Shown: positions 1-18,194, counted from the first letter of the stretch. The stretch is DNA of 18,194 nucleotides from a virus (IMGVR_UViG_3300029107_000044:1-18194), one strand, 5' to 3'. The notes: a model not told the origin generated them from the letters alone. Translations and numbers: made by a program.

Positions 1-489
1 ATGGCTACCAATCCGAGAGAACATGCCCGGCGAGTGCTGGAGACGTTCTGGCGTGGTCGGGACTTTCCTGTCGATCCTGCAAAAATCGCTAACGATATGG
101 GGATTGATGTTTTTATTGGCAAATTACCGGGCAATGTGTCTGGGGCTTTGATCAAGCAAAGGTGTCAGGATCCCGCAATCTTTCTTAACGCAGATGATAG
201 CAAGCCCCGGCAGCGCTTTTCGTGCGGACATGAACTCGGTCATTATATTGCCAGACTGGCAGATCAAAGTGACGTCTATGAGTACGCTGATTTTCGTGGT
301 GAAGAATCCAGGAGTGGAACTGATCCAGATGAAATCTTTGCGAATCAGTTTGCTGCTGAACTTCTTATGCCTATAGATGAAGTAAAAAGACTGCATTCTC
401 AGGGACATCCGAGCTATGTTATAGCACATCATTTCGGAGTGTCTGATGATGCGATCAATTTCCGTCTGAAGAATCTAAGGTTAGCCTGA
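1..489 (+). CDS. ImmA/IrrE-family (M78-like) zinc metallopeptidase; may be 5'-partial at the window edge
   Basis: 162-aa ORF with HEXXH motif (SCGHELGHY) and a downstream FAxxLLMP-type motif typical of ImmA/IrrE peptidases. ATG sits exactly at position 1, so the true start may lie upstream. Confidence 0.6.
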   Translation: MATNPREHARRVLETFWRGRDFPVDPAKIANDMGIDVFIGKLPGNVSGALIKQRCQDPAIFLNADDSKPRQRFSCGHELGHYIARLADQSDVYEYADFRGEESRSGTDPDEIFANQFAAELLMPIDEVKRLHSQGHPSYVIAHHFGVSDDAINFRLKNLRLA

Positions 490-500
490 TACATTGAGCT

Positions 501-968
501 ATGCAGCACGAGAACGATTCTGATAATGAATTCAGGTTGTCGGTATTCGATACCCTAAAGGGAACGCTGAACCAACATAGACAGATGGCTGAAGAGGGGC
601 GCGACGAACAGGCCTTTAAAAAAGATGAAGAGATCGAGAGTGAACATTTTGTCTATAGATCACGCACAAGGAGTGGCACAGATCATTCCGATGTGACACA
701 GGTTGGTTCGCTTGACCCTGAGCAACACAGAAAACAGCTCAGTAACAGAGATTTTGAAGGTGAGATTAAGTTAAAAAAGACCTATGGTATCTGGCTTTTG
801 TTTATTCTTGCCATCCAGTTGCTTGTTATGAATGCGGTGTTCATTGTGGTTGGATTTAAGACACTGGTATTTGATGCCTTAACATTGCAGCTGTACATGG
901 GGGGAACCTTAACAGAAGTGTTTGGGCTTGTTCTCGTAATCACGAAGTACCTCTTCAATCGAAAATAG
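501..968 (+). CDS. hypothetical membrane protein (acidic N-terminal region, about two C-terminal transmembrane helices)
   Basis: 155-aa ORF 12 nt after the peptidase stop, same strand. C-terminal hydrophobic stretches (IWLLFILAIQLLVMNAVFIVVGF; TEVFGLVLVITKYLF). No recognised family. Confidence 0.4.
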   Translation: MQHENDSDNEFRLSVFDTLKGTLNQHRQMAEEGRDEQAFKKDEEIESEHFVYRSRTRSGTDHSDVTQVGSLDPEQHRKQLSNRDFEGEIKLKKTYGIWLLFILAIQLLVMNAVFIVVGFKTLVFDALTLQLYMGGTLTEVFGLVLVITKYLFNRK

Positions 969-1002
969 CCCCATTGGTTGATTTGGGGCCTTTGCTATTT
1001 CA

Positions 1003-2013
1003 TTACCCTTCTTTTTTGACTAATGGCAGATCCAGTGTTGGTGTGATTTTCGTTTTCCGGTCATAAACTAGCACTTGCGCTTCAGTCTTATGTCCAGAGA
1101 AAAGCTGTTTGTCCCGACTGCTTCCCTCATAGTCTGAAATCCCTTTAGCCTTAAGATCATGAAAGGTGAAGTCGGTTAAAATACCTGAAATTTTGCCTGC
1201 GCGATTTCTTGCTTCTACCCACATTTCGTTAAAGCCTTTGTACATATATCGGTTGCCGTATTGATTGCTGATTACATAGGCGGATGTTGGTAACTGTTTT
1301 GCTTTTTCGATCGCCGCCTGTAATCGTGGACTCCATGCTTTTATCTGTTTTTTCCCTGTTTTCCCTTGCTGGATAAAGATCCCGTCGTTTCCAATCTGCT
1401 CCCATTTCAGCGATAACACATCGGAAACCCTCGCTGCACACAGATAGGCAATTTCCATTGCGATAAAAACAGGAAGAGGTGCAACGCTTAATACTGCCTG
1501 GTATTCTTTATCAGTTACATATCGTTCGCGGTTTTTGGCCTTGAATTTACTTACACCTGCACATGGGTTACTCTTCACGTACCCTCGCTCATACCCCCAA
1601 CTGTAAACGCGGGACATACTGCTTTTTTCATGGTTGGCTTGCGTTTTACTCTGTTCCCCTCTCTTGTCCATGTATCGACGGATGTGTTCTGGTTTTATGG
1701 AATCTGCCTGCACCTTACCGAATACGGCAAGCAACTTTTTTTGATGTTGCAGATAATCTTTTTGTGTTCTTGGACTGAGGTCACTGTAATAGGCGCTGGC
1801 GAGGAATTTTTCCCACAAGCGACCGAATGTCATTGCGCGATCGCGATTATTTACAGTTTCCTCATACTTTTTCCATAAAGCAGCTAAACCATCCTTGATG
1901 GCGGTTAGTGTGACAGATTCTCTGGATGTTGGTTTCCATACATAACTATATTTATTTGGGTATACATTTGGAGGTAGTTTTTCGTGTTCAGGATTTTTCC
2001 TTCGTCTTCCCAT
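1003..2013 (-). CDS. int: phage tyrosine integrase (lambda Int-like)
   Basis: 336-aa ORF. N-terminus MGRRRKNPEHEKLPPNVY resembles lambda Int MGRRRSHERRDLPPNLY; C-terminus GHKTEAQVLVYDR resembles the lambda Int catalytic-Tyr region (LGHKSDTMASQYRDDR). Confidence 0.9.
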   Translation of the reverse strand: MGRRRKNPEHEKLPPNVYPNKYSYVWKPTSRESVTLTAIKDGLAALWKKYEETVNNRDRAMTFGRLWEKFLASAYYSDLSPRTQKDYLQHQKKLLAVFGKVQADSIKPEHIRRYMDKRGEQSKTQANHEKSSMSRVYSWGYERGYVKSNPCAGVSKFKAKNRERYVTDKEYQAVLSVAPLPVFIAMEIAYLCAARVSDVLSLKWEQIGNDGIFIQQGKTGKKQIKAWSPRLQAAIEKAKQLPTSAYVISNQYGNRYMYKGFNEMWVEARNRAGKISGILTDFTFHDLKAKGISDYEGSSRDKQLFSGHKTEAQVLVYDRKTKITPTLDLPLVKKEG

Positions 2014-2216
2014 CAGATTGCACCAAAATTCGGCTCTACCTCGCGTGGTGGTAAAGTTTTATTGCAGGTAAATAGATCCCGGCTGACAATCGGTTTGCCA
2101 CTACGATTGGTATAGAACGGAAGCCCGTTTTCCGTTAACCATTTTCGCTGGTGGCTTGCATATTTGCAGCCCGTTAATATTAGCAATTCATCTTCGGTTA
2201 AAAATAAGCTGCTCAT
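2013..2216 (-). CDS. excisionase-like protein (Xis)
   Basis: 67-aa ORF directly upstream of int on the same strand, its end overlapping the int start codon. Position and size fit a lambdoid xis; sequence family not verified. Confidence 0.5.
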   Translation of the reverse strand: MSSLFLTEDELLILTGCKYASHQRKWLTENGLPFYTNRSGKPIVSRDLFTCNKTLPPREVEPNFGAI

Positions 2217-2274
2217 AGCTATATCTCATAACCGCCGCTAACTATATACGGTTAGCGGCAATTAGGGTTGAACA

Positions 2275-5268: not shown

Positions 5269-5326
5269 AAAAAGGGCGGCAGAGCAGTCACGGAGTAAAA
5301 CTGATACCGCCAAACGTCACCAGAAA
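5269..5326 (-). ncRNA. dicF: DicF small regulatory RNA (cell-division inhibitor sRNA targeting ftsZ mRNA)
   Basis: Minus-strand sequence TTTCTGGTGACGTTTGGCGGTATCAGTTTTACTCCGTGACTGCTCTGCCGCCC followed by TTTTT matches DicF as I recall it, including its intrinsic terminator. Synteny downstream of ydfC supports it. Confidence 0.85.
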
Positions 5327-5666: not shown

Positions 5667-5885
5667 TTAACGCGGGTATGTAATCATTCTGGCAATGCTT
5701 AATGCCGCTGCTTTTTCCAGATTGGTGATATCCTGCTCCAGAGAGAACAGATTTTCAGCCTGCTTAGCCCTGGCTTCATTAGCCCATTTCAGATCCTGCG
5801 CTGCATTAATTTTCTGGTGCATCCACTCATAAAGTTCATCATCGGTATAGTCTGGCGCGATGATAACGGGTTCTCGTTTCTGCAT
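5667..5885 (-). CDS. ydfC: YdfC-like prophage protein
   Basis: 72-aa ORF with AGGAA RBS before the ATG. Length and position (third gene after dicA, just upstream of DicF) match K-12 Qin ydfC (72 aa). Confidence 0.6.
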   Translation of the reverse strand: MQKREPVIIAPDYTDDELYEWMHQKINAAQDLKWANEARAKQAENLFSLEQDITNLEKAAALSIARMITYPR

Positions 5886-5914
5886 ACTGATTCCTTGCGG
5901 TGCTGTTTCGCTTA

Positions 5915-8575: not shown

Positions 8576-8998
8576 GTGGCAAAAGTTTTTACACAAGAAG
8601 AGCGGGAAAAAATTAAATGGCAGGTGGTGGAACTCGTGCGCCAGAGCGGCCGTGAGACGTTACGGCAACTGGAAGCTAAAACAGGTGCGACTAGATATCT
8701 GATGAGCGTTCTTGCCAGAGAGCTGGTAGCCAGTGGCGATGTATACAACTCCGGCTACGGGTTATTCCCCTCTGAACAGGCGCGTAAGGACTGGCAAAAC
8801 GCCCGCAAAAAACTCTCGAGGGCAAAGGTGAAGAAACCTGCTGTGGTTGATCCGGACCTTATCTGGTCATCACCTGACGGAGAAATACGTCGCTACGACA
8901 GTCGCCTAAACATAATCTGTCGCGAGTGCCGGAAGAGCGAAGTTATGCAGCGCATACTGGCTTTCTATCAGGGTAATTTTCAGGACGTGGCGCAGTGA
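8576..8998 (+). CDS. hypothetical protein, translationally coupled to the downstream methyltransferase ORF
   Basis: 140-aa ORF with GTG start and an AAGGGGG RBS 6 nt upstream. Its stop overlaps the next start in GTGA (8995-8998). No recognised family. Confidence 0.5.
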   Translation: MAKVFTQEEREKIKWQVVELVRQSGRETLRQLEAKTGATRYLMSVLARELVASGDVYNSGYGLFPSEQARKDWQNARKKLSRAKVKKPAVVDPDLIWSSPDGEIRRYDSRLNIICRECRKSEVMQRILAFYQGNFQDVAQ

Positions 8999-9961: not shown

Positions 9962-10249
9962 ATGAGCGAGATTAATTATCAGGAAGGGCATGAAACGGCG
10001 GGGCAAGCAAAACCAGTGACATGGCGATATCGCTACGTGAAAAAAGGCGTTACGGACTTTCAGGGGAAGTAGTGGTCTGGTGACTGGAAATATGTACCGA
10101 AAAAAGAGGATTGTAACGACAGGCCGAACTATCAAATTCAGGCCTTATTCACTGCCTCACCAGTCCCGGTTACATCAGAAGAATTGGTTAAAGCTGTGCA
10201 CTTTTATGAACAACTAAAACGCGAAAATCCACCAACATCCGGCAACTAG
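9962..10249 (+). pseudogene. possible nonsense-disrupted ORF (96 codons with one in-frame amber at 10070-10072)
   Basis: Hand translation: MSEINYQEGHETAGQAKPVTWRYRYVKKGVTDFQGK, then TAG, then WSGDWKYVPKKEDCNDRPNYQIQALFTASPVPVTSEELVKAVHFYEQLKRENPPTSGN. Could be coincidental. Confidence 0.3.
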
Positions 10250-10503
10250 ATTAATGGGTTAACTATGTCGGTTAAACGACCAGCCAACTGAAAAAGCGGA
10301 AACCTGATTACAGGTTGCCAGATAAGGCAATGAGCTACCTGGCGCGGAACGGACTGATAAGTATGGGGAATGTTTTACGATGAACCTTTAGACTAAAGAG
10401 TTTGTAACGCTATGTAAGTGATTTTTTCTGGTTTAGATATTTATATGTCCGGCCAAATTGAGGTGTGTTTAAATGTAATTGCACATTGATTGTAGGAGGA
10501 ATA

Positions 10504-10683
10504 ATGAAAAACGCATTGCAGTTTTTGTTTGTTGCGTTCTGGTTGTTCGCATCATGTATGCCCATCATCTTCACAGCAAGGTATATGGAAAAAGTTGATG
10601 TTTTGATATTAATATTTGGATATATAAATGCCCTTTTTTTAGGGGTGTTCATGGCGGTCATGTGCATTGAATACTGGCGGTAA
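10504..10683 (+). CDS. small hydrophobic membrane protein (59 aa, about two transmembrane helices) in an AT-rich island
   Basis: Strong RBS (AGGAGGAATA) before ATG 10504; the track ORF starts upstream at 10465. Sequence MKNALQFLFVAFWLFASCMPIIFTARYMEKVDVLILIFGYINALFLGVFMAVMCIEYWR. Confidence 0.45.
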   Translation: MKNALQFLFVAFWLFASCMPIIFTARYMEKVDVLILIFGYINALFLGVFMAVMCIEYWR

Positions 10684-11017
10684 ATACAGCGAACTCCATT
10701 GGTTTAGTTGGATATTTACTGTGCTGGACAAAAACGGTTTGCGGGGAAATCTTAGTTAAGTAGAATGACTGCGGGTGCTTGAGGCTATCTGCCTCGGGCA
10801 CGAACACCAACGGCAGGTAGAGAAAAGCCCCAGTTAACATTACGCGTCCTGCAAGACGCTTAACATTAATCTGAGGCCAATTTCATGCCAGACACATGTA
10901 GGTTAGCCTCTTACGTGCCGAAAGGCAAGGAGAAGCAGGCTATTGTTAACACCAAGCTGTAATGTCCCCTTTGAACCATTCTAAAATGTCCCCAGACAAT
11001 TCTCTGGGGGATTTTTC

Positions 11018-11389
11018 ATGACCAAAGAAACTGTTACGATGAGTCATAAGGAACTCCACCGACTTCAGATTATTCAGGAGTCAATTAATCGACATATTAC
11101 TCAGGAACAAGCTGCGGCACGCATTGGCATTTCTATTCGGCAGGTTAAACGTCTGGTGCAACGGTATAGAAATGAAGGGCCTTCTGGTCTGGTTTCCCAC
11201 CGACGTGGAAAGCGTCCTAATAATTCCTTTTCTACTGAATTCAGAGCAACAGTAATTTTACTCCTCAAAGGCCGTTACGCTGATTTTGGACCTACGTTTG
11301 CGTGCGAAAAATTGCGCGAGATACACGGTTTATCTTTATCCGTTGAAACTCTCAGAAAGTGGATGATAGAAGAGGGGGGTATGGCGTGA
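11018..11389 (+). CDS. transposase N-terminal part (HTH domain; orfA or upstream fragment of a frameshifted gene)
   Basis: 123-aa ORF with a helix-turn-helix (ITQEQAAARIGISIRQVKRLVQRY). It ends just after a G6 homopolymer (GAGGGGGGT); the +1 frame continues in-frame into the downstream ORF (..GVWRERRRKIARIYQRRMRRPSYGELIQ..). Confidence 0.7.
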   Translation: MTKETVTMSHKELHRLQIIQESINRHITQEQAAARIGISIRQVKRLVQRYRNEGPSGLVSHRRGKRPNNSFSTEFRATVILLLKGRYADFGPTFACEKLREIHGLSLSVETLRKWMIEEGGMA

Positions 11390-11426
11390 ACGCCGTCGTA
11401 AAATTGCCCGTATATATCAACGCCGC

Positions 11427-12359
11427 ATGCGACGACCATCTTACGGTGAACTGATCCAGATTGATGGCTCACCTCATGACTGGTTTGAAAATCGAGGCCC
11501 CAGATGTACACTGATCGTTTTCATTGATGATGCCACCAGTGCGTTGATGGCGTTGCGTTTTGTGCCTGCTGAAACAACCCGGGCTTACATGGAAACCCTC
11601 CGGGGTTACCTTAATGATCATGGCGTACCGCTCGCTCTCTACTCTGATAGACACAGTATATTCAGGGTAAATAACCCAGAGCGGGAAGGTGAGCTGACCC
11701 AGTTCACTCGTGCGATAAAGACACTGGGCATCGAGCCAATCCATGCCAACAGCCCGCAGGCAAAAGGGCGGGTAGAGCGCGCCAATCAGACACTACAGGA
11801 CAGGCTGGTCAAAGAAATGCGGCTTCAGAATATCAGTGATATTGAAACAGCAAATGCATGGTTGCCGACCTTTATTGAAGCCTATAACAACCGGTTCGCT
11901 ACGTCGCCTCGTACTACTGATAATGCTCATCTTGATGTGCACCATTCTGAAGAGGAACTGGGTTATATCTTCAGCCTACAGGCGAAGCGCGTTCTGTCTA
12001 AAAATCTCACTTTCCAGTACAAAAGCAGTGCGTTTCAGGTACGCAGTGAGGGCCGGGGATATCGACTTAGGCATTCGGTTGTTACTGTATGCGAGAACTT
12101 TGACGGTGAAATTAACGTTCTGTATGACGGGAAAGCGCTGGGCTGGGAAAAGTATGTTGATGGCCCGGAGCCTATACCACTGGATGATGAAAAGAGTGTC
12201 CATGAACGAGTGGATAATGCCCGTATTGATTTACGCTCAAAATACTATGTTAAACCTAAAGCTGACCATCCCTGGCTTACGCGCCGAACGCAAAGTCATC
12301 AGCAAGTTAAGCCCCCGAAGTTACCTAAAAAGAAGCCTGATCCCGATAAAAAAGATTGA
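11427..12359 (+). CDS. transposase C-terminal part (DDE integrase-core / rve domain)
   Basis: 310-aa ORF with rve-type motifs (IQIDGSPHDW, LYSDRHSIF, KGRVERANQTLQDRL) and a lysine-rich C-terminus. Confidence 0.75.
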   Translation: MRRPSYGELIQIDGSPHDWFENRGPRCTLIVFIDDATSALMALRFVPAETTRAYMETLRGYLNDHGVPLALYSDRHSIFRVNNPEREGELTQFTRAIKTLGIEPIHANSPQAKGRVERANQTLQDRLVKEMRLQNISDIETANAWLPTFIEAYNNRFATSPRTTDNAHLDVHHSEEELGYIFSLQAKRVLSKNLTFQYKSSAFQVRSEGRGYRLRHSVVTVCENFDGEINVLYDGKALGWEKYVDGPEPIPLDDEKSVHERVDNARIDLRSKYYVKPKADHPWLTRRTQSHQQVKPPKLPKKKPDPDKKD

Positions 12360-12754
12360 AACCAAGATCGATTCGGTTGAGTGCATATCCATTCATAGGG
12401 TAGATTCTTAAGTCGCGTTTCTGGTGTTCATTTTCGGGTGGTTTGTTACTTGTTTTACCGGGGATATGCCAGAAACGCGCTGAGTCAGTCTGGGCGGTGC
12501 GCGTAATGAGGCGTTATGGTAAATAGCCTATGCTAATGTCCGCTAAGAGCAAGAAGCGGAAGTTGGCAGTTTTGTGGACTGTCCCCACAAAAGTGACTAC
12601 AGAAATAGTTGCAATTCATAATTGATCATGGGTTGTCAGTTAAACTCGTGGCGATTTAAATAGACTAATTGGGAGTGCGTCCATTACTTATATCTTGTAA
12701 TGTTAACTATCAGAAATGATACAAAGATAATATGTCTTTAAAGAAAAGGCTGAT

Positions 12755-12781
12755 GGCGAAAAGTGGCCCGATGAGGGCCAC
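12755..12781 (-). terminator. intrinsic terminator downstream of flxA
   Basis: Minus-strand hairpin GTGGCCC-TCATC-GGGCCAC followed by TTTTCGCC, 15 nt after the flxA stop. Confidence 0.55.
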
Positions 12782-12795
12782 AATACGGCTGTCAC

Positions 12796-13128
12796 TTAGA
12801 CGTAAATATCAATGGTGCCAGCGGTATTTGTATCGTCTTTTTTCTCTTCTTTTTTATCAGGCTGAACTGTCGCGTCTTTATTCTTTTTCTCTGCCTGCTG
12901 CCTTAACAACTGCTCCAGTTGAGCCCTGAGGCTTTCAATTTGCTTCTGTACCAATGCAGCCATTTCTTTTTTCTGCTGTGTCGTCATCCCCTCTTCCGAT
13001 GAGATTTTCCCAAGCTTTTCAGTCAGCACCTGAATTTGTCTTGTGATTTTGGCTATTTCTGATGTTCCTTCCGGGGCGGAGTTGTTTGAAATAACGGTTG
13101 AGGTATTTCCCTGAATTGTGACAGACAT
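12796..13128 (-). CDS. flxA: FlxA-like protein (sigma-28-dependent prophage gene)
   Basis: 110-aa ORF (MSVTIQGNTSTV...), matching the length of K-12 Qin FlxA, with a near-consensus FliA promoter immediately upstream. Confidence 0.8.
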   Translation of the reverse strand: MSVTIQGNTSTVISNNSAPEGTSEIAKITRQIQVLTEKLGKISSEEGMTTQQKKEMAALVQKQIESLRAQLEQLLRQQAEKKNKDATVQPDKKEEKKDDTNTAGTIDIYV

Positions 13129-13151
13129 AGATTTCTCCTTTTAAAAAAGCA

Positions 13152-13178
13152 CTATCGGCATGCACAAAAAAATCTTTA
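13152..13178 (-). promoter_or_regulatory. sigma-28 (FliA) class-3 flagellar promoter for flxA
   Basis: Minus strand reads TAAAGATT-N11-GCCGATAG, against the consensus TAAAGTTT-N11-GCCGATAA, placed upstream of the flxA RBS (AAAAGGAG). Confidence 0.75.
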
Positions 13179-13330
13179 ATCGTATTTCTTGTGTCATTAA
13201 TTGTTTGATGTTCAGATTGTTTTCCTCGCGGGCTGGCGCGCCTCAGAAAGTAAAGCTTGTTGACAGGGGTAAACGTTCGGCAATAATTTTCTGCCGCATG
13301 CGGGTGTTGCATAAAACGTGCTACGTTCCT

Positions 13331-13636
13331 TTATCGACAGGTCAGGTCACCGCTCACCCGCCGACGAGAAAGCAACACTGACATGCTAAAGCAAAAAATA
13401 GATGAATAAGTTGAGTTGTGCATATGTAGCCTGACCGTCACAAAGTATATGGTGTCTGTACCAGTAAGATGATGGCCGGACTCTTTAAAAACGAGCTGAC
13501 CTGCACAATACAGGATGGACTTAGCAATGGCTGCTCCTGGCACAAAGCGGACAGTGATCACCGTTCTTACGACTACTTTCTGACTTCCTTCGTGACTTGC
13601 CCTAAGCATGTTGTAGTGCGATACTTGTAATGACAT
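13331..13636 (-). CDS. hypothetical protein (ydfV-like by position and length); possibly not a real gene
   Basis: 101-aa ORF between flxA and relB, the same size and position as K-12 ydfV. It overlaps the relBE promoter region and has unusual composition. Confidence 0.3.
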   Translation of the reverse strand: MSLQVSHYNMLRASHEGSQKVVVRTVITVRFVPGAAIAKSILYCAGQLVFKESGHHLTGTDTIYFVTVRLHMHNSTYSSIFCFSMSVLLSRRRVSGDLTCR

Positions 13637-13649
13637 TTGTAATTACAAG
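13624..13649 (+). promoter_or_regulatory. relBE operator/promoter region (inverted repeat CTTGTAAT-N10-ATTACAAG)
   Basis: Palindromic element 11 nt upstream of the relB start codon, consistent with RelB/RelE autoregulation sites. Confidence 0.55.
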
Positions 13650-13660
13650 AGGTGTAAGAC

Positions 13661-13900
13661 ATGGGTAGCATTAACCTGCGTATTGACGATGAACTTAAAG
13701 CGCGTTCTTACGCCGCGCTTGAAAAAATGGGTGTAACTCCTTCTGAAGCGCTTCGTCTCATGCTCGAGTATATCGCTGACAATGAACGCTTGCCGTTCAA
13801 ACAGACACTCCTGAGTGATGAAGATGCTGAACTTGTGGAGATAGTGAAAGAACGGCTTCGTAATCCTAAGCCAGTACGTGTGACGCTGGATGAACTCTGA
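13661..13900 (+). CDS. relB: RelB antitoxin
   Basis: 79-aa ORF MGSINLRIDDELKARSYA...RNPKPVRVTLDEL, near-identical to K-12 RelB as I recall it; overlaps the relE start. Confidence 0.92.
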   Translation: MGSINLRIDDELKARSYAALEKMGVTPSEALRLMLEYIADNERLPFKQTLLSDEDAELVEIVKERLRNPKPVRVTLDEL

Positions 13901-14187
13901 TGGCGTATTTTCTGGATTTTGACGAGCGGGCACTAAAGGAATGGCGAAAGCTGGGCTCGACGGTACGTGAACAGTTGAAAAAGAAGCTGGTTGAAGTACT
14001 TGAGTCACCCCGGATTGAAGCAAACAAGCTCCGTGGTATGCCTGATTGTTACAAGATTAAGCTCCGGTCTTCAGGCTATCGCCTTGTATACCAGGTTATA
14101 GACGAGAAAGTTGTCGTTTTCGTGATTTCTGTTGGGAAAAGAGAACGCTCGGAAGTATATAGCGAGGCGGTCAAACGCATTCTCTGA
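13900..14187 (+). CDS. relE: RelE mRNA-interferase toxin
   Basis: 95-aa ORF MAYFLDFDERALKEWRKLG...VISVGKRERSEVYSEAVKRIL, matching K-12 RelE as I recall it. Confidence 0.92.
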   Translation: MAYFLDFDERALKEWRKLGSTVREQLKKKLVEVLESPRIEANKLRGMPDCYKIKLRSSGYRLVYQVIDEKVVVFVISVGKRERSEVYSEAVKRIL

Positions 14188-14258
14188 ACCAAAGCATGAC
14201 ATCTCTGTTTCGCACCGAAGGTGACACTTCTGCTTTGCGTTGACAGGAGAAGCAGGCT

Positions 14259-14414
14259 ATGAAGCAGCAAAAGGCGATGTTAATCGCCCTGATCGTCATC
14301 TGTTTAACCGTCATAGTGACGGCACTGGTAACGAGGAAAGACCTCTGCGAGGTACGAATCAGAACCGGCCAGACGGAGGTCGCTGTCTTCACAGCTTACG
14401 AACCTGAGGAGTAA
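14259..14414 (+). CDS. hokD: HokD (RelF) Hok-family membrane toxin
   Basis: Hand-translated 51-aa ORF MKQQKAMLIALIVICLTVIVTALVTRKDLCEVRIRTGQTEVAVFTAYEPEE, a typical Hok sequence, with RBS AGGAGAAGCAGG upstream. Below the ORF-track size cutoff. Confidence 0.85.
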   Translation: MKQQKAMLIALIVICLTVIVTALVTRKDLCEVRIRTGQTEVAVFTAYEPEE

Positions 14415-14482
14415 GAGACCCGGCGGGGGAGAAATCCCTCGCCACCTCTGATGTGGCAGGCATCCTCAACGCACCCGCACTT

Positions 14483-14510
14483 AACCCGCTTCGGCGGGTT
14501 TTTGTTTTTA
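14483..14510 (+). terminator. intrinsic terminator after relBE-hokD
   Basis: CCCGC-TTCG-GCGGG hairpin followed by TTTTTGTTTTTATTTT. Confidence 0.7.
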
Positions 14511-17678: not shown

Positions 17679-17978
17679 AAAAATTCCTTAATACTGATAA
17701 CTTGGCGCACTATACACACGTTCCTGAAGAAAGCTATAGTTTTTTGATGGGGTTGAAGATGGCTGGATGTCTAAAATAAACATTGCTTCATATGTTCAAC
17801 TATGCGTTAATGATTGCGTCGGTTTGAAGAACAGACGATATACGAAGTAGTTTACTAAAGCAGTTCTCATTTCAGGTGTTATTCACTTATTCCTTCTTTG
17901 AGTCTCTCCAATTAAGTACGAAGTCGTTTCTGTTATACAAACCATTTATGCCGAAAGGCTCAAGTTAAGGAATGTAGA

Positions 17979-18194
17979 ATGTCAAATAAAATGACTGGTT
18001 TAGTAAAATGGTTTAACGCTGATAAAGGTTTCGGCTTTATTTCTCCTGTTGATGGTAGTAAAGATGTGTTTGTGCATTTTTCTGCGATTCAGAATGATAA
18101 TTATCGAACCTTATTTGAAGGTCAAAAGGTTACCTTCTCTGTAGAGAGTGGTGCTAAAGGTCCTACGGCAGCAAATGTTATAATTACCGATTAA
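17979..18194 (+). CDS. cspB: cold-shock protein CspB-like (could be a CspI-like paralogue)
   Basis: 71-aa [41 protein letters not shown]... with canonical RNP1/RNP2 motifs; the stop coincides with the window end. Confidence 0.8.

What the first reader, a model, noticed from the sequence alone, without database searches (positions are those of the whole stretch)
10400..10700. 59-aa two-helix membrane protein in a sharply AT-rich island
It has a strong RBS, is very hydrophobic, and sits in AT-rich DNA between the decayed region and the IS element, typical of a horizontally acquired moron. Small phage membrane proteins like this are often toxins or superinfection-exclusion factors.
Basis: inference. 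Interest (0 to 1): 0.45.

Follow-up and report, generated by a model that had tools for sequence, protein, structure and literature searches.

The report
Unannotated small prophage membrane protein gene
The 59-codon reading frame is very probably a real small membrane-protein gene that standard annotation misses, carried on an AT-rich add-on cassette in a Qin-type E. coli prophage, and what it does remains untested.

Summary
An ATG ORF at 10504-10683 (+) encodes 59 aa behind AGGAGG, with two hydrophobic helices, in DNA of about 36% GC against 46% for the window. ORF length alone is not significant, since 15% of shuffles reach it.

The evidence for coding is a second subfamily at 41% identity. 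It has the same 59-aa length and no gaps, and its start and stop sit at the same places. It lies in a prophage remnant next to ttcA in 1045 of 5426 complete E. coli genomes. Subfamily 1 is in 1568. The antisense 85-aa ORF that phage records annotate is not conserved.

Related phages carry a 74-nt segment encoding a 27-aa membrane peptide where the window has a 338-nt cassette (10385-10722). So the cassette is moron-like in presence/absence and in composition, but no promoter or terminator was found. It always sits just upstream of a hok/sok locus, which here is split by a 3.3-kb IS1202-type element.

No Pfam, PHROG, NCBIfam, PADLOC, PDB or fold relatives were found. Within subfamily 1, all 10 substitutions are nonsynonymous. 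The toxin or exclusion role is untested. A lipobox-like LFASC/IVISC motif raises a lipoprotein alternative.

Verdict: a new member of a known kind, of moderate interest.

The parts
10504..10683 (+). ORF59: a 59-aa small membrane protein CDS, ATG to TAA. Predicted helices are 2-26 and 28-58. Residues identical in the window protein, a subfamily 1 variant and subfamily 2 protein P0037 are M1 L5 L8 W13 S17 C18 P20 I21 I22 T24 Y27 L36 F38 G39 N42 A43 L44 G47 V48 F49 I55 E56 W58 R59.
   Evidence: Conservation against subfamily 2 is. The ORF was intact in 111 of 116 contigs sampled without regard to ORF state.
10494..10499 (+). Shine-Dalgarno sequence AGGAGG, 4 nt upstream of the ATG. Subfamily 2 has AGGGA 6 nt upstream of its ATG.
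   Evidence: Sequence reading.
10385..10722 (.). AT-rich cassette of about 338 nt and about 36% GC carrying ORF59. The boundaries come from comparison with related contigs that lack it. In those contigs a 74-nt, 54% GC segment encoding a 27-aa one-helix peptide occupies the slot.
10384..10503 (+). 120-nt AT-rich leader between the stop of the upstream gene and the ORF59 ATG. It is loosely homologous to the subfamily 2 leader, with about six indels. It contains the palindrome CTTTAGaCTAAAG (10386-10398), which reads CTTCAGtCTGAAG in subfamily 2. No consensus sigma-70 promoter was found.
10380..10391 (+). Stump (ATG AAC CTT TAG) of the 27-aa peptide gene that occupies this slot in related phages. 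Its ATG overlaps the TGA of the upstream gene (ATGA).
9962..10383 (+). Decayed upstream gene of the phrog_660 family, function unknown, with stops in every frame. It forms the left conserved flank of the slot.
10410..10667 (-). Antisense 85-aa shadow ORF. This is the feature annotated in the phage records ('hypothetical protein', 'hornerin'). It is rejected as a gene because it has 2 stops in the subfamily 2 homologue.
10733..10943 (+). 5' half of a hok/sok locus. The putative hok promoter is TTGCGG (10739-10744), a 16-nt spacer, then TAGAAT (10761-10766). It also holds the sok/mok region and the hok Shine-Dalgarno. It is cut inside the hok ATG. This forms the right conserved flank of the slot.
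   Evidence: Rfam RF01794 at 99.8 bits. 93% identical to the intact hok of phage vB_EcoS-640R1.

Best explanation
ORF59 (10504-10683, + strand) is a genuine but usually unannotated accessory gene of Qin/Rac-type lambdoid prophages of E. coli and Shigella.

It sits on an AT-rich cassette of about 338 nt. That cassette lies in a variable slot between a phrog_660-type gene of the early-right (nin-like) region and a hok/sok locus.

The product is a 59-aa inner-membrane helical hairpin, predicted to have both ends in the cytoplasm. The N-terminus carries K2 (R2K3 in subfamily 2), and the short loop at residues 26-32 is neutral to acidic.

Shown here:
- The ORF, its ribosome-binding site, its hydrophobic helices and its composition.
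- Presence or absence of the cassette between conserved flanks.
- A second subfamily at 41% identity with the same length, start and stop.

Inferred:
- It is transcribed rightwards with the repressor-controlled early-right operon, because no promoter or terminator of its own was detected. It would therefore be made mainly after induction or infection.
- It acts by helix-helix association in the membrane. The conserved features for this are a small-residue face G39-x3-A43-x3-G47 with a buried N42 in helix 2, and a W13/S17-C18/P20 kink region in helix 1.

My committed guess, at about 40% given that it is a real protein, is a self-associating, membrane-perturbing peptide that is toxin-like when over-expressed. 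Its physiological role would be host-membrane takeover or exclusion during phage development. At about 30% it is a non-toxic exclusion factor or a regulator of a host membrane protein.
For: Family and conservation:
- An exhaustive phmmer search of 1.84 billion proteins found a second 59-aa family (P0037/P0042) at 41% identity over residues 1-59.
- The DNA alignment shows no indel across the 180-nt ORF but several in the leader.
- Differences by codon position are 25/17/31. NG86 gives dN 0.45 and dS 2.3. Only the ORF59 frame is open in both copies.
- In a neutral-divergence simulation, P(no internal stop) = 0.035, and 0.0035 with the start and stop also kept.
- 24 of 59 residues are identical, against 17 +/- 2.5 expected from random placement of the same changes, P = 0.005.

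Distribution:
- Subfamily 1 is in 1568 and subfamily 2 in 1045 of 5426 complete E. coli genomes.
- The ORF was intact in 111 of 116 contigs sampled on an upstream anchor.
- In the subfamily 2 remnant it is flanked by fragments of int, a DUF977 gene and hok.

Cassette behaviour is shown.

Hairpin: hydropathy and the AlphaFold2 model.

The ORF is co-oriented with dicC, ydaT-like, O-like, DUF977, methyltransferase, rem, ydfU and the Q antiterminator gene.
Against: Coding evidence:
- Within subfamily 1 all 10 substitutions seen are nonsynonymous and none is synonymous. The probability of that under neutrality is about 0.07-0.15 for 9 sites. So there is no sign of purifying selection at shallow depth.
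- Frameshifted, truncated and chimeric alleles exist.
- ORF length alone is within chance, reached by 15% of shuffles.
- The lower density of variable sites in the ORF (6.1%, against 13% and 9% in the flanks) is only suggestive.
- Only two subfamilies exist, both in E. coli/Shigella, so the comparative evidence rests on one deep comparison with saturated dS.

Annotation and expression:
- NCBI's PGAP pipeline does not call the ORF in any listed RefSeq genome.
- No expression data were found.
- No promoter or terminator was found.

Function: nothing bears on it beyond sequence features. No family, defence-system or fold match was found.
Confidence: 0.62

Rival explanations
1. It is not a gene. 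The frame is a chance open frame in an AT-rich, T-rich spacer upstream of hok/sok, and the similarity to the second copy reflects shared descent of non-coding DNA.
For: - ORFs of at least 59 codons occur in 15% of shuffles.
- 10 of 10 recent substitutions are nonsynonymous.
- Homology to subfamily 2 extends beyond the ORF on both sides.
- PGAP never calls it.
- Disrupted alleles occur.
- There are no relatives outside E. coli/Shigella.
Against: - At 41% nucleotide divergence the frame, start, stop and length are all kept, with simulated P = 0.0035.
- There are no indels in the ORF but several in the leader.
- Substitutions cluster by codon, P = 0.005.
- Second codon positions are the least changed.
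- All five other frames are closed in at least one copy.
- A ribosome-binding site is present in both copies.
Confidence: 0.12
2. It is a small lipoprotein precursor rather than a hairpin. Residues 1-17 would be a signal peptidase II signal peptide with lipobox L-F-A-S-C (I-V-I-S-C in subfamily 2). The 42-aa mature peptide would be lipidated at C18 and held in the inner membrane by helix 2.
For: - Both subfamilies fit the PROSITE PS00013-type rule. That rule asks for K/R in the first 7 residues, six uncharged residues, [LIVMFWSTAG]2-[LIVMFYSTAGCQ]-[AGS]-C, and the Cys at position 15-35. The pattern was written from memory.
- S17 and C18 are invariant although positions 14-16 differ.
- Small lipoproteins such as Cor, Llp, Bor and Rz1 are common phage accessory products (established knowledge).
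Against: - The hydrophobic stretch continues for 7 residues past the Cys (MPIIFTA), giving a normal 22-residue transmembrane length.
- AlphaFold2 models one continuous helix 2-26.
- The mature part would be almost entirely a membrane helix, unlike known lipoproteins.
- Lipobox patterns are frequent false positives in transmembrane helices (established knowledge).
Confidence: 0.15
3. ORF59 works together with the adjacent hok/sok locus, for example as a modulator or immunity factor for Hok or as a second toxin under the same control. On this reading the position directly upstream of hok is functional rather than inherited.
For: - In both subfamilies the ORF lies directly upstream of a hok locus or hok remnant.
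- In related phages the same slot carries other tiny hydrophobic peptide ORFs of 27 and 29 aa.
Against: - All 108 newly fetched hok loci with at least 500 nt of upstream sequence, out of 120 sampled in viral contigs, lack any ORF59 homologue within 800 nt upstream.
- ORF59 stays intact where hok is destroyed, both in the window and in the subfamily 2 remnant.
- Both subfamilies share the same left junction, so the adjacency is explained by common descent.
- The ORF lies outside the hok mRNA, upstream of its promoter.
Confidence: 0.08
4. The real gene is the 85-aa ORF on the minus strand (10410-10667), as annotated in the phage GenBank records.
For: - Phage records PV340562, ON470612 and ON470619 annotate that ORF.
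- An ORF of at least 84 codons is rarer in shuffles, at 1.6%.
Against: - It has 2 in-frame stops in the subfamily 2 homologue and only 33% identity in that frame.
- It has the low-complexity K/N/T-rich composition expected of the shadow of a T-rich coding strand.
- It runs against the direction of the operon.
Confidence: 0.02

Closest known systems
Phage 'morons' (Hendrix/Juhala sense), e.g. lambda bor and lom, HK97 gp15
   Same: It is an extra DNA segment, present in some related lambdoid genomes and absent in others, lying between the same flanking genes. Its base composition is clearly different, and it encodes a small envelope protein that is not needed for the core phage cycle.
   Different: No promoter or terminator of its own was detected. 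It lies inside the early-right operon in the same orientation. Expression from the repressed prophage is unknown.
Hok/Gef type I toxins (Pfam PF01848), including the neighbouring hok and hokD
   Same: It is a small hydrophobic inner-membrane peptide encoded in the same prophage region, directly next to a hok locus.
   Different: - There is no sequence match.
- It has two helices and 59 aa, against one helix plus a periplasmic tail.
- No antisense RNA, mok-like leader ORF or fold-back mRNA elements were found (Rfam).
- It remains intact where hok has been inactivated.
GhoT/OrtT (type V toxin, 57 aa, two transmembrane helices; Pfam Toxin_GhoT_OrtT)
   Same: Size and predicted two-helix hairpin topology (established knowledge for GhoT).
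   Different: No Pfam hit at E <= 10. There is no adjacent antitoxin gene. It is prophage-borne and restricted to E. coli/Shigella.
Small phage exclusion proteins of the inner membrane (T4 Imm, P22/lambdoid SieB, HK97 gp15)
   Same: It is a small helical membrane protein made by a phage, non-essential and variable between related phages. The excess of amino-acid changes among recent alleles would fit a conflict gene.
   Different: No match in Pfam, PHROGs or PADLOC. No exclusion phenotype has been tested. The excess of nonsynonymous changes is not statistically significant.
Class II holins and pinholins (e.g. phage 21 S68)
   Same: It has two transmembrane helices and a small-residue (Gly/Ala) face in one helix suited to self-association.
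   Different: The C-terminal tail is not charged (it ends ...IEYWR). It is not in the lysis cassette, because essD, ydfR and rrrQ lie beyond the Q antiterminator gene. There is no dual start and no holin family hit.

Membership tests
Moron (autonomous add-on gene of a phage genome) | Present in some and absent in other closely related phages between the same flanking genes | tested here: met
   28 hok-anchored viral contigs share the tail of the upstream gene, ending at the equivalent of window 10383, and the hok block from about 10726. They have 74 nt or other inserts in the slot instead of the 338-nt cassette.
Moron (autonomous add-on gene of a phage genome) | Base composition distinct from the surrounding genome | tested here: met
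   The island is 36.5% GC against 46.3% for the window, and it holds the lowest 300-nt bin of the window. The short version of the slot in relatives, measured through to the hok RNA start, is 46-51% GC.
Moron (autonomous add-on gene of a phage genome) | Own promoter upstream and own terminator downstream | tested here: not met
   The consensus scan of 10200-11050 found no sigma-70-like site. The only terminator-like sites lie outside the cassette or on the other strand. The scan is crude and also missed the hok promoter, so this result is weak.
Moron (autonomous add-on gene of a phage genome) | Expressed from the repressed prophage | not testable with these tools
   No transcriptome or ribosome-profiling data are available. 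A literature search for the peptide sequences found nothing.
Hok/Gef type I toxin-antitoxin | Hok_Gef protein domain, with a sok-type antisense RNA and a mok leader | tested here: not met
   No Pfam hit at E <= 10. The Rfam sok match starts at 10773, downstream of the ORF, and nothing was found over 10300-10772.
GhoT/OrtT membrane toxin | Match to the Toxin_GhoT_OrtT family | tested here: not met
   No Pfam-A family at E <= 10 for ORF59. NCBIfam gave none for ORF59 and only a sub-threshold hydrophobic match for subfamily 2.
Holin (class II / pinholin) | Two transmembrane helices plus a charged C-terminal tail, encoded next to the endolysin | tested here: not met
   Two helices are present. The tail is only 4-5 residues with no net charge (E56, R59). 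The lysis genes essD, ydfR and rrrQ lie beyond the right end of the window, past the Q antiterminator gene. No holin model in Pfam or PHROGs matched.
Known anti-phage defence or exclusion proteins | Match to a PADLOC, PHROG or Pfam model of a defence or exclusion protein | tested here: not met
   No PADLOC family for either subfamily. PHROGs gave none for ORF59 and only E = 0.12 to an unknown-function family for subfamily 2.
Bacterial lipoprotein (signal peptidase II substrate) | Positively charged N-terminal region, hydrophobic core, and a lipobox ending in Cys at position 15-35 | tested here: met
   A PS00013-type pattern, written from memory, matches LFVAFWLFASC and LCISIWIVISC with Cys18 in both subfamilies.
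Bacterial lipoprotein (signal peptidase II substrate) | Cleavage and lipidation at the Cys, with a soluble mature domain | not testable with these tools
   No SignalP or LipoP was available. The sequence after C18 stays hydrophobic, and AlphaFold2 shows a continuous helix 2-26. That argues against membership but does not test it.

The most novel reading that the evidence does not exclude
The slot directly upstream of prophage hok/sok loci may be a dedicated exchange site for tiny membrane-peptide genes. Those seen here are ORF59, a 27-aa MTWPEAF... peptide and a 29-aa MLVLKCAL... peptide. These peptides might act on or with Hok, or on the same membrane target. On this reading ORF59 would be a new family of self-associating two-helix membrane effector under diversifying selection in phage-phage or phage-host conflict.
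Probability: 0.1. Interest if true: 0.6.

Novelty: new member of a known kind. Interest (0 to 1): 0.35.

Why it matters
One or the other subfamily of this 59-aa protein is present in a large share of complete E. coli genomes, 1568 and 1045 of 5426 with some overlap. RefSeq annotation nevertheless leaves the locus blank, and phage records annotate the wrong strand.

It is a concrete, testable example of the small membrane proteins that gene callers miss. It sits in a region already full of membrane-active and growth-arresting prophage genes, including hok, relE, dicB and ydfD.

If it proves to be membrane-perturbing or to exclude other phages, it would add a new family to the small set of characterised two-helix phage membrane effectors. 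If not, it remains an ordinary orphan accessory gene.

Tried and rejected
- Family searches with ORF59 and its homologue found nothing meaningful in Pfam, PHROGs, NCBIfam or PADLOC.
- A PDB sequence profile search found nothing.
- Foldseek of the AlphaFold2 model against viral structures gave only generic helical hairpins with E > 2.
- The word-indexed protein search with the single sequence, and again with a two-subfamily profile, found no third subfamily.
- The scan of one genome per species found only two Shigella flexneri records.
- The phage collection holds only three records with the ORF.
- A literature search for the peptide strings gave no hits. Papers on hok distribution and on hokW-sokW do not mention neighbouring small ORFs.
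- Rfam found nothing over the ORF or its leader.
- The antisense 85-aa ORF was rejected.
- The 72-aa GTG-start version found in GenBank was rejected. Subfamily 2 has an in-frame TAA five codons upstream of its ATG, and there is no start codon between that stop and the ATG.
- My first test for purifying selection, using the 80 best tblastn loci, was biased towards intact ORFs. It was repeated on contigs anchored on an upstream 40-mer.
- A strict regular-expression attempt to classify the contents of the slot recovered only 5 loci. It was replaced by a BLAST-based approach.

Full report
**Setting**

The window is a Qin-type lambdoid prophage of E. coli or Shigella. The finding's region is 99-100% identical to many complete E. 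coli chromosomes.

From NCBI's PGAP annotation of near-identical records, the gene order is as follows:
- int, xis-like, exo, ydfD, dicB, DicF RNA, ydfC, ydfB, ydfA and dicA on the left arm;
- then rightwards dicC (cro position), a ydaT-like gene, an O-like gene, a DUF977 gene and a methyltransferase;
- a DUF7167 pseudogene and a second pseudogene;
- the region of the finding;
- an ISNCY/IS1202-type transposase pseudogene, ydfW, flxA, ydfV, relB, relE and hokD;
- rem, ydfU, the Q antiterminator gene, cspF and cspB.

E. coli K-12 MG1655 appears to lack the segment with the finding. This is my recollection of its dicC-ydfX-ydfW junction and was not checked here.

**The observation**

The ORF runs from ATG 10504 to TAA 10683 on the + strand and encodes 59 aa. 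AGGAGG lies at 10494-10499, leaving a 4-nt spacer.

Kyte-Doolittle analysis gives GRAVY 1.27, with hydrophobic segments at about 4-25 and 31-55 separated by ARYMEKVD. AlphaFold2 on an 8-row alignment gives helices 2-26 and 28-58 with pLDDT 73.

The intergenic island 10384-10772 is 36.5% GC against 46.3% for the window, and it contains the lowest 300-nt bin of the window.

The 'decayed region' upstream is real. All three frames of 9962-10383 carry stops. An intact version from a related contig belongs to phrog_660, a family of unknown function.

One correction is needed. The ORF's downstream neighbour is not the IS. It is the 5' half of a hok/sok locus (Rfam sok, 10773-10944, 99.8 bits), and the IS-type element begins at 10944.

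**Is it more than chance?**

Length alone is not. An ATG ORF of at least 59 codons appears in 15% of dinucleotide-preserving shuffles of the island.

The ORF has no Pfam, PHROG, NCBIfam or PADLOC family. PGAP leaves it unannotated in every listed RefSeq genome. GenBank submitters call it 'hypothetical protein' or 'membrane protein', sometimes as a 72-aa version from an upstream GTG.

The three phage records that carry it annotate the antisense 85-aa ORF instead.

**Shallow variation**

The 221-nt stretch occurs in 1568 of 5426 complete genomes, always at 95% identity or more.

My first sample of 80 viral contigs was chosen by protein similarity and so was biased. I therefore re-sampled 116 contigs anchored on an invariant 40-mer upstream of the ORF. 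Results from that sample:
- The ORF is intact in 111 of them. The rest include one T-run frameshift, two recombination junctions and two with an upstream indel.
- Variable-site density is 6.1% in the ORF, against 13% in the leader and 9% in the downstream spacer. I estimated by hand a chi-square P of about 0.1, so this is only suggestive.
- All 10 substitutions inside the ORF change the amino acid: A16V, M28I, V31I, I37M, Y40H, A43V, L44I, V48G, M53T and one at 10658. None is synonymous.
- Given a synonymous fraction of 19-25% for random changes in this sequence, 0 synonymous out of 9 has P = 0.07-0.15 under neutrality. It would be very unlikely under strong purifying selection.

So recent history shows no protein-level constraint. 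This remains the main evidence against a functional gene, or a hint of diversifying selection.

**Deep conservation**

The exhaustive phmmer search found a second family, P0037/P0042. It is also exactly 59 aa and is 41% identical over residues 1-59. No third family appeared with a profile search or in one-genome-per-species DNA.

Subfamily 2 is present in 1045 of 5426 genomes, again unannotated. It lies between ttcA and uspF-ompN, the region I know as the Rac attachment site. There it sits in a prophage remnant alongside three gene fragments: an integrase fragment, a DUF977 fragment and a hok 3' fragment.

Aligning the two DNAs shows homology from about 10368 to about 10710. There is no indel in the 180-nt ORF, and there are about six in the 120-nt leader.

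Further measures from this comparison:
- Differences per codon position are 25, 17 and 31.
- NG86 gives dN 0.45 and dS 2.3. dS is saturated, so the ratio of about 0.2 is rough.
- The ORF59 frame is the only one of six that is open in both copies. The antisense ORF has two stops in subfamily 2.
- Simulating neutral divergence with the observed 73 changes keeps the frame open in 3.5% of trials, and keeps the start and stop as well in 0.35%.
- Random placement of the same number of changes gives 17 +/- 2.5 identical residues, against 24 observed, P = 0.005.

Subfamily 2 has an in-frame stop five codons before its ATG, so the 59-aa start is the conserved one.

I conclude that the + strand ORF has been maintained as a protein-coding frame over a long divergence. 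My probability that it is a real gene is about 0.85.

**The cassette and its slot**

I sampled 120 viral contigs on an intact hok ribosome-binding region. Of the 108 newly fetched ones with at least 500 nt of upstream sequence, none has an ORF59 homologue within 800 nt upstream.

28 of them share the same upstream gene tail, ending at the equivalent of 10383, and the same hok block from about 10726. The contents of the slot vary:
- In most, it is 74 nt of 54% GC. This encodes a 27-aa one-helix peptide, MTWPEAFTTxGIAMAxALVVYSICRWG, whose ATG overlaps the upstream stop (ATGA).
- Some add a 29-aa hydrophobic ORF.
- Some carry a different AT-rich insert with an 87-aa ORF.

In the window the 27-aa gene is reduced to ATG AAC CTT TAG, and about 338 nt of AT-rich DNA with ORF59 fills the slot.

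This meets two defining features of a moron: presence or absence between conserved flanks, and deviant composition. It does not meet the third, because no promoter or terminator of its own was found. That scan is crude, and it also missed the hok promoter I read at 10739-10766.

Since the ORF points the same way as the early-right operon, I infer read-through expression after induction. This step is inference.

**How it probably works**

Charge distribution favours both ends in the cytoplasm and a short periplasmic loop. The N-terminus carries K2 (R2K3 in subfamily 2), and the loop is neutral or acidic.

The residues shared between the window protein, one subfamily 1 variant and subfamily 2 protein P0037 cluster in four places. 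In the wider 8-sequence alignment Y27, G47, V48, F49 and I55 are no longer strictly invariant.
- W13, S17-C18, P20-I21-I22 and T24 in helix 1.
- F38-G39, N42-A43-L44 and G47-V48-F49 in helix 2.
- Y27 just after helix 1.
- I55-E56 and W58-R59 at the C-terminal interface.

The G39-x3-A43-x3-G47 spacing puts small residues on one helix face next to a buried Asn. From general knowledge of membrane proteins, this is a typical self-association or partner-docking surface. That is the basis for my committed guess of a self-associating, membrane-perturbing hairpin, at about 40% given a real protein. The alternative, at about 30%, is a non-toxic exclusion or regulatory peptide.

Nothing here tests either guess. 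The intactness of ORF59 where hok has been destroyed is compatible with both. This holds in the window, where an IS-type element splits hok, and in subfamily 2, where hok is partly deleted.

**Lipoprotein alternative**

In both subfamilies residues 8-18 satisfy the classical lipobox rule with Cys18, and S17-C18 are invariant. Against this, the hydrophobic run continues past the Cys and is modelled as one helix. I give this rival 0.15.

**Comparison with known systems**

The ORF resembles small phage or prophage membrane effectors such as Hok, GhoT, T4 Imm, HK97 gp15 and pinholins in size and topology only. It failed every sequence-model membership test that I could run.

It is best filed as a new, orphan member of the broad kind 'small prophage-encoded membrane proteins on add-on cassettes', not as a member of any named family.

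**Verdict**

The new information is fourfold:
- The gene is very likely real and is systematically missed or mis-stranded by annotation.
- It has a second subfamily in a prophage remnant.
- It occupies a variable slot for tiny membrane-peptide genes just upstream of hok.
- Its recent evolution shows only amino-acid changes.

Interest is moderate, at 0.35.

Noticed in passing
window 10733-10943 and 14245-14509; element 10944-14245: The hok locus is split. The intact hok/sok of phage vB_EcoS-640R1 matches 10733-10943 (promoter, sok, mok, ribosome-binding site) at 93%, and matches 14245-14509 (the 'hokD' coding sequence and 3' region after relE) at 97.7%.

The 3302-nt insert between them carries the truncated ISNCY/ISEsa1-type transposase gene, ydfW, flxA, ydfV and relBE. 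It starts with TGT and ends with ACA, as described for IS1202-family ends (PMC10132070). Its terminal inverted repeats match at 19 of 26 positions, the only such match in the window.

The insert is flanked by a 15-16-nt direct repeat, (A)GGAGAAGCAGGCTAT. So relBE, and with it the promoter-less hokD, look like the result of an IS1202-type element inserting into the hok start codon. ISEsa1 itself is reported to make no target duplication, whereas other family members make duplications of 16-28 bp.
   Followed up: partly
slot equivalent to window 10380-10725 in loci L246, L267, L303, L297, L248, L280, L276: Related hok-carrying lambdoid contigs encode a conserved 27-aa hydrophobic peptide, MTWPEAFTTxGIAMAxALVVYSICRWG. 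It is translationally coupled (ATGA) to the phrog_660-type gene.

Some contigs add a 29-aa peptide, MLVLKCALAIAAVMAIYCLVIVLMNHLSD. Others carry an AT-rich insert with an 87-aa ORF.

The slot upstream of hok therefore looks like a hot spot for small membrane-peptide genes. No Pfam or PHROG family matched at a meaningful score.
   Followed up: partly
window 10386-10398; L203 about 5877-5889: There is a perfect 13-nt palindrome, CTTTAGaCTAAAG, at the left edge of the cassette. In the subfamily 2 copy it reads CTTCAGtCTGAAG, so it has changed symmetrically on both arms. It could be a protein-binding site or a recombination scar. As RNA it would be too short a hairpin.
   Followed up: no
L203 4984-7200 (E. 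coli chromosome between ttcA and uspF): The subfamily 2 copy lies in a prophage remnant of about 2 kb. The remnant holds an integrase fragment, a 100-nt DUF977 fragment (76% identical to window 8878-8980), the intact 59-aa ORF, and a hok 3' fragment (80% identical to window 14327-14392). A decayed ABC-3 permease gene lies next to it on the other strand. It is present in 1045 of 5426 complete genomes, including strains 536 and ATCC 11775.
   Followed up: partly
window 10627-10633: A run of seven T inside ORF59 (CCCTTTTTTTAGG) is the site of the frameshift alleles seen in databases and in one of 116 sampled contigs. Subfamily 2 has no such run.
   Followed up: no
window 5274-5325 (-) and 17818-18194 (+): Rfam finds DicF RNA at 76.7 bits and the cspA-type thermoregulator leader in front of cspB at 154.6 bits, cut off by the end of the window. 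Both are expected features of Qin.
   Followed up: no
window 1-2270 versus E. coli records: The left end of the window (integrase side) matches the best E. coli records only from position 1021 or 2267 onwards, or at 84-88% identity. In strain N12 a closely related prophage sits next to tRNA-Ser and mtfA, whereas the record labelled DH5alpha has it next to rspB. So the integration module differs between otherwise near-identical prophages.
   Followed up: no
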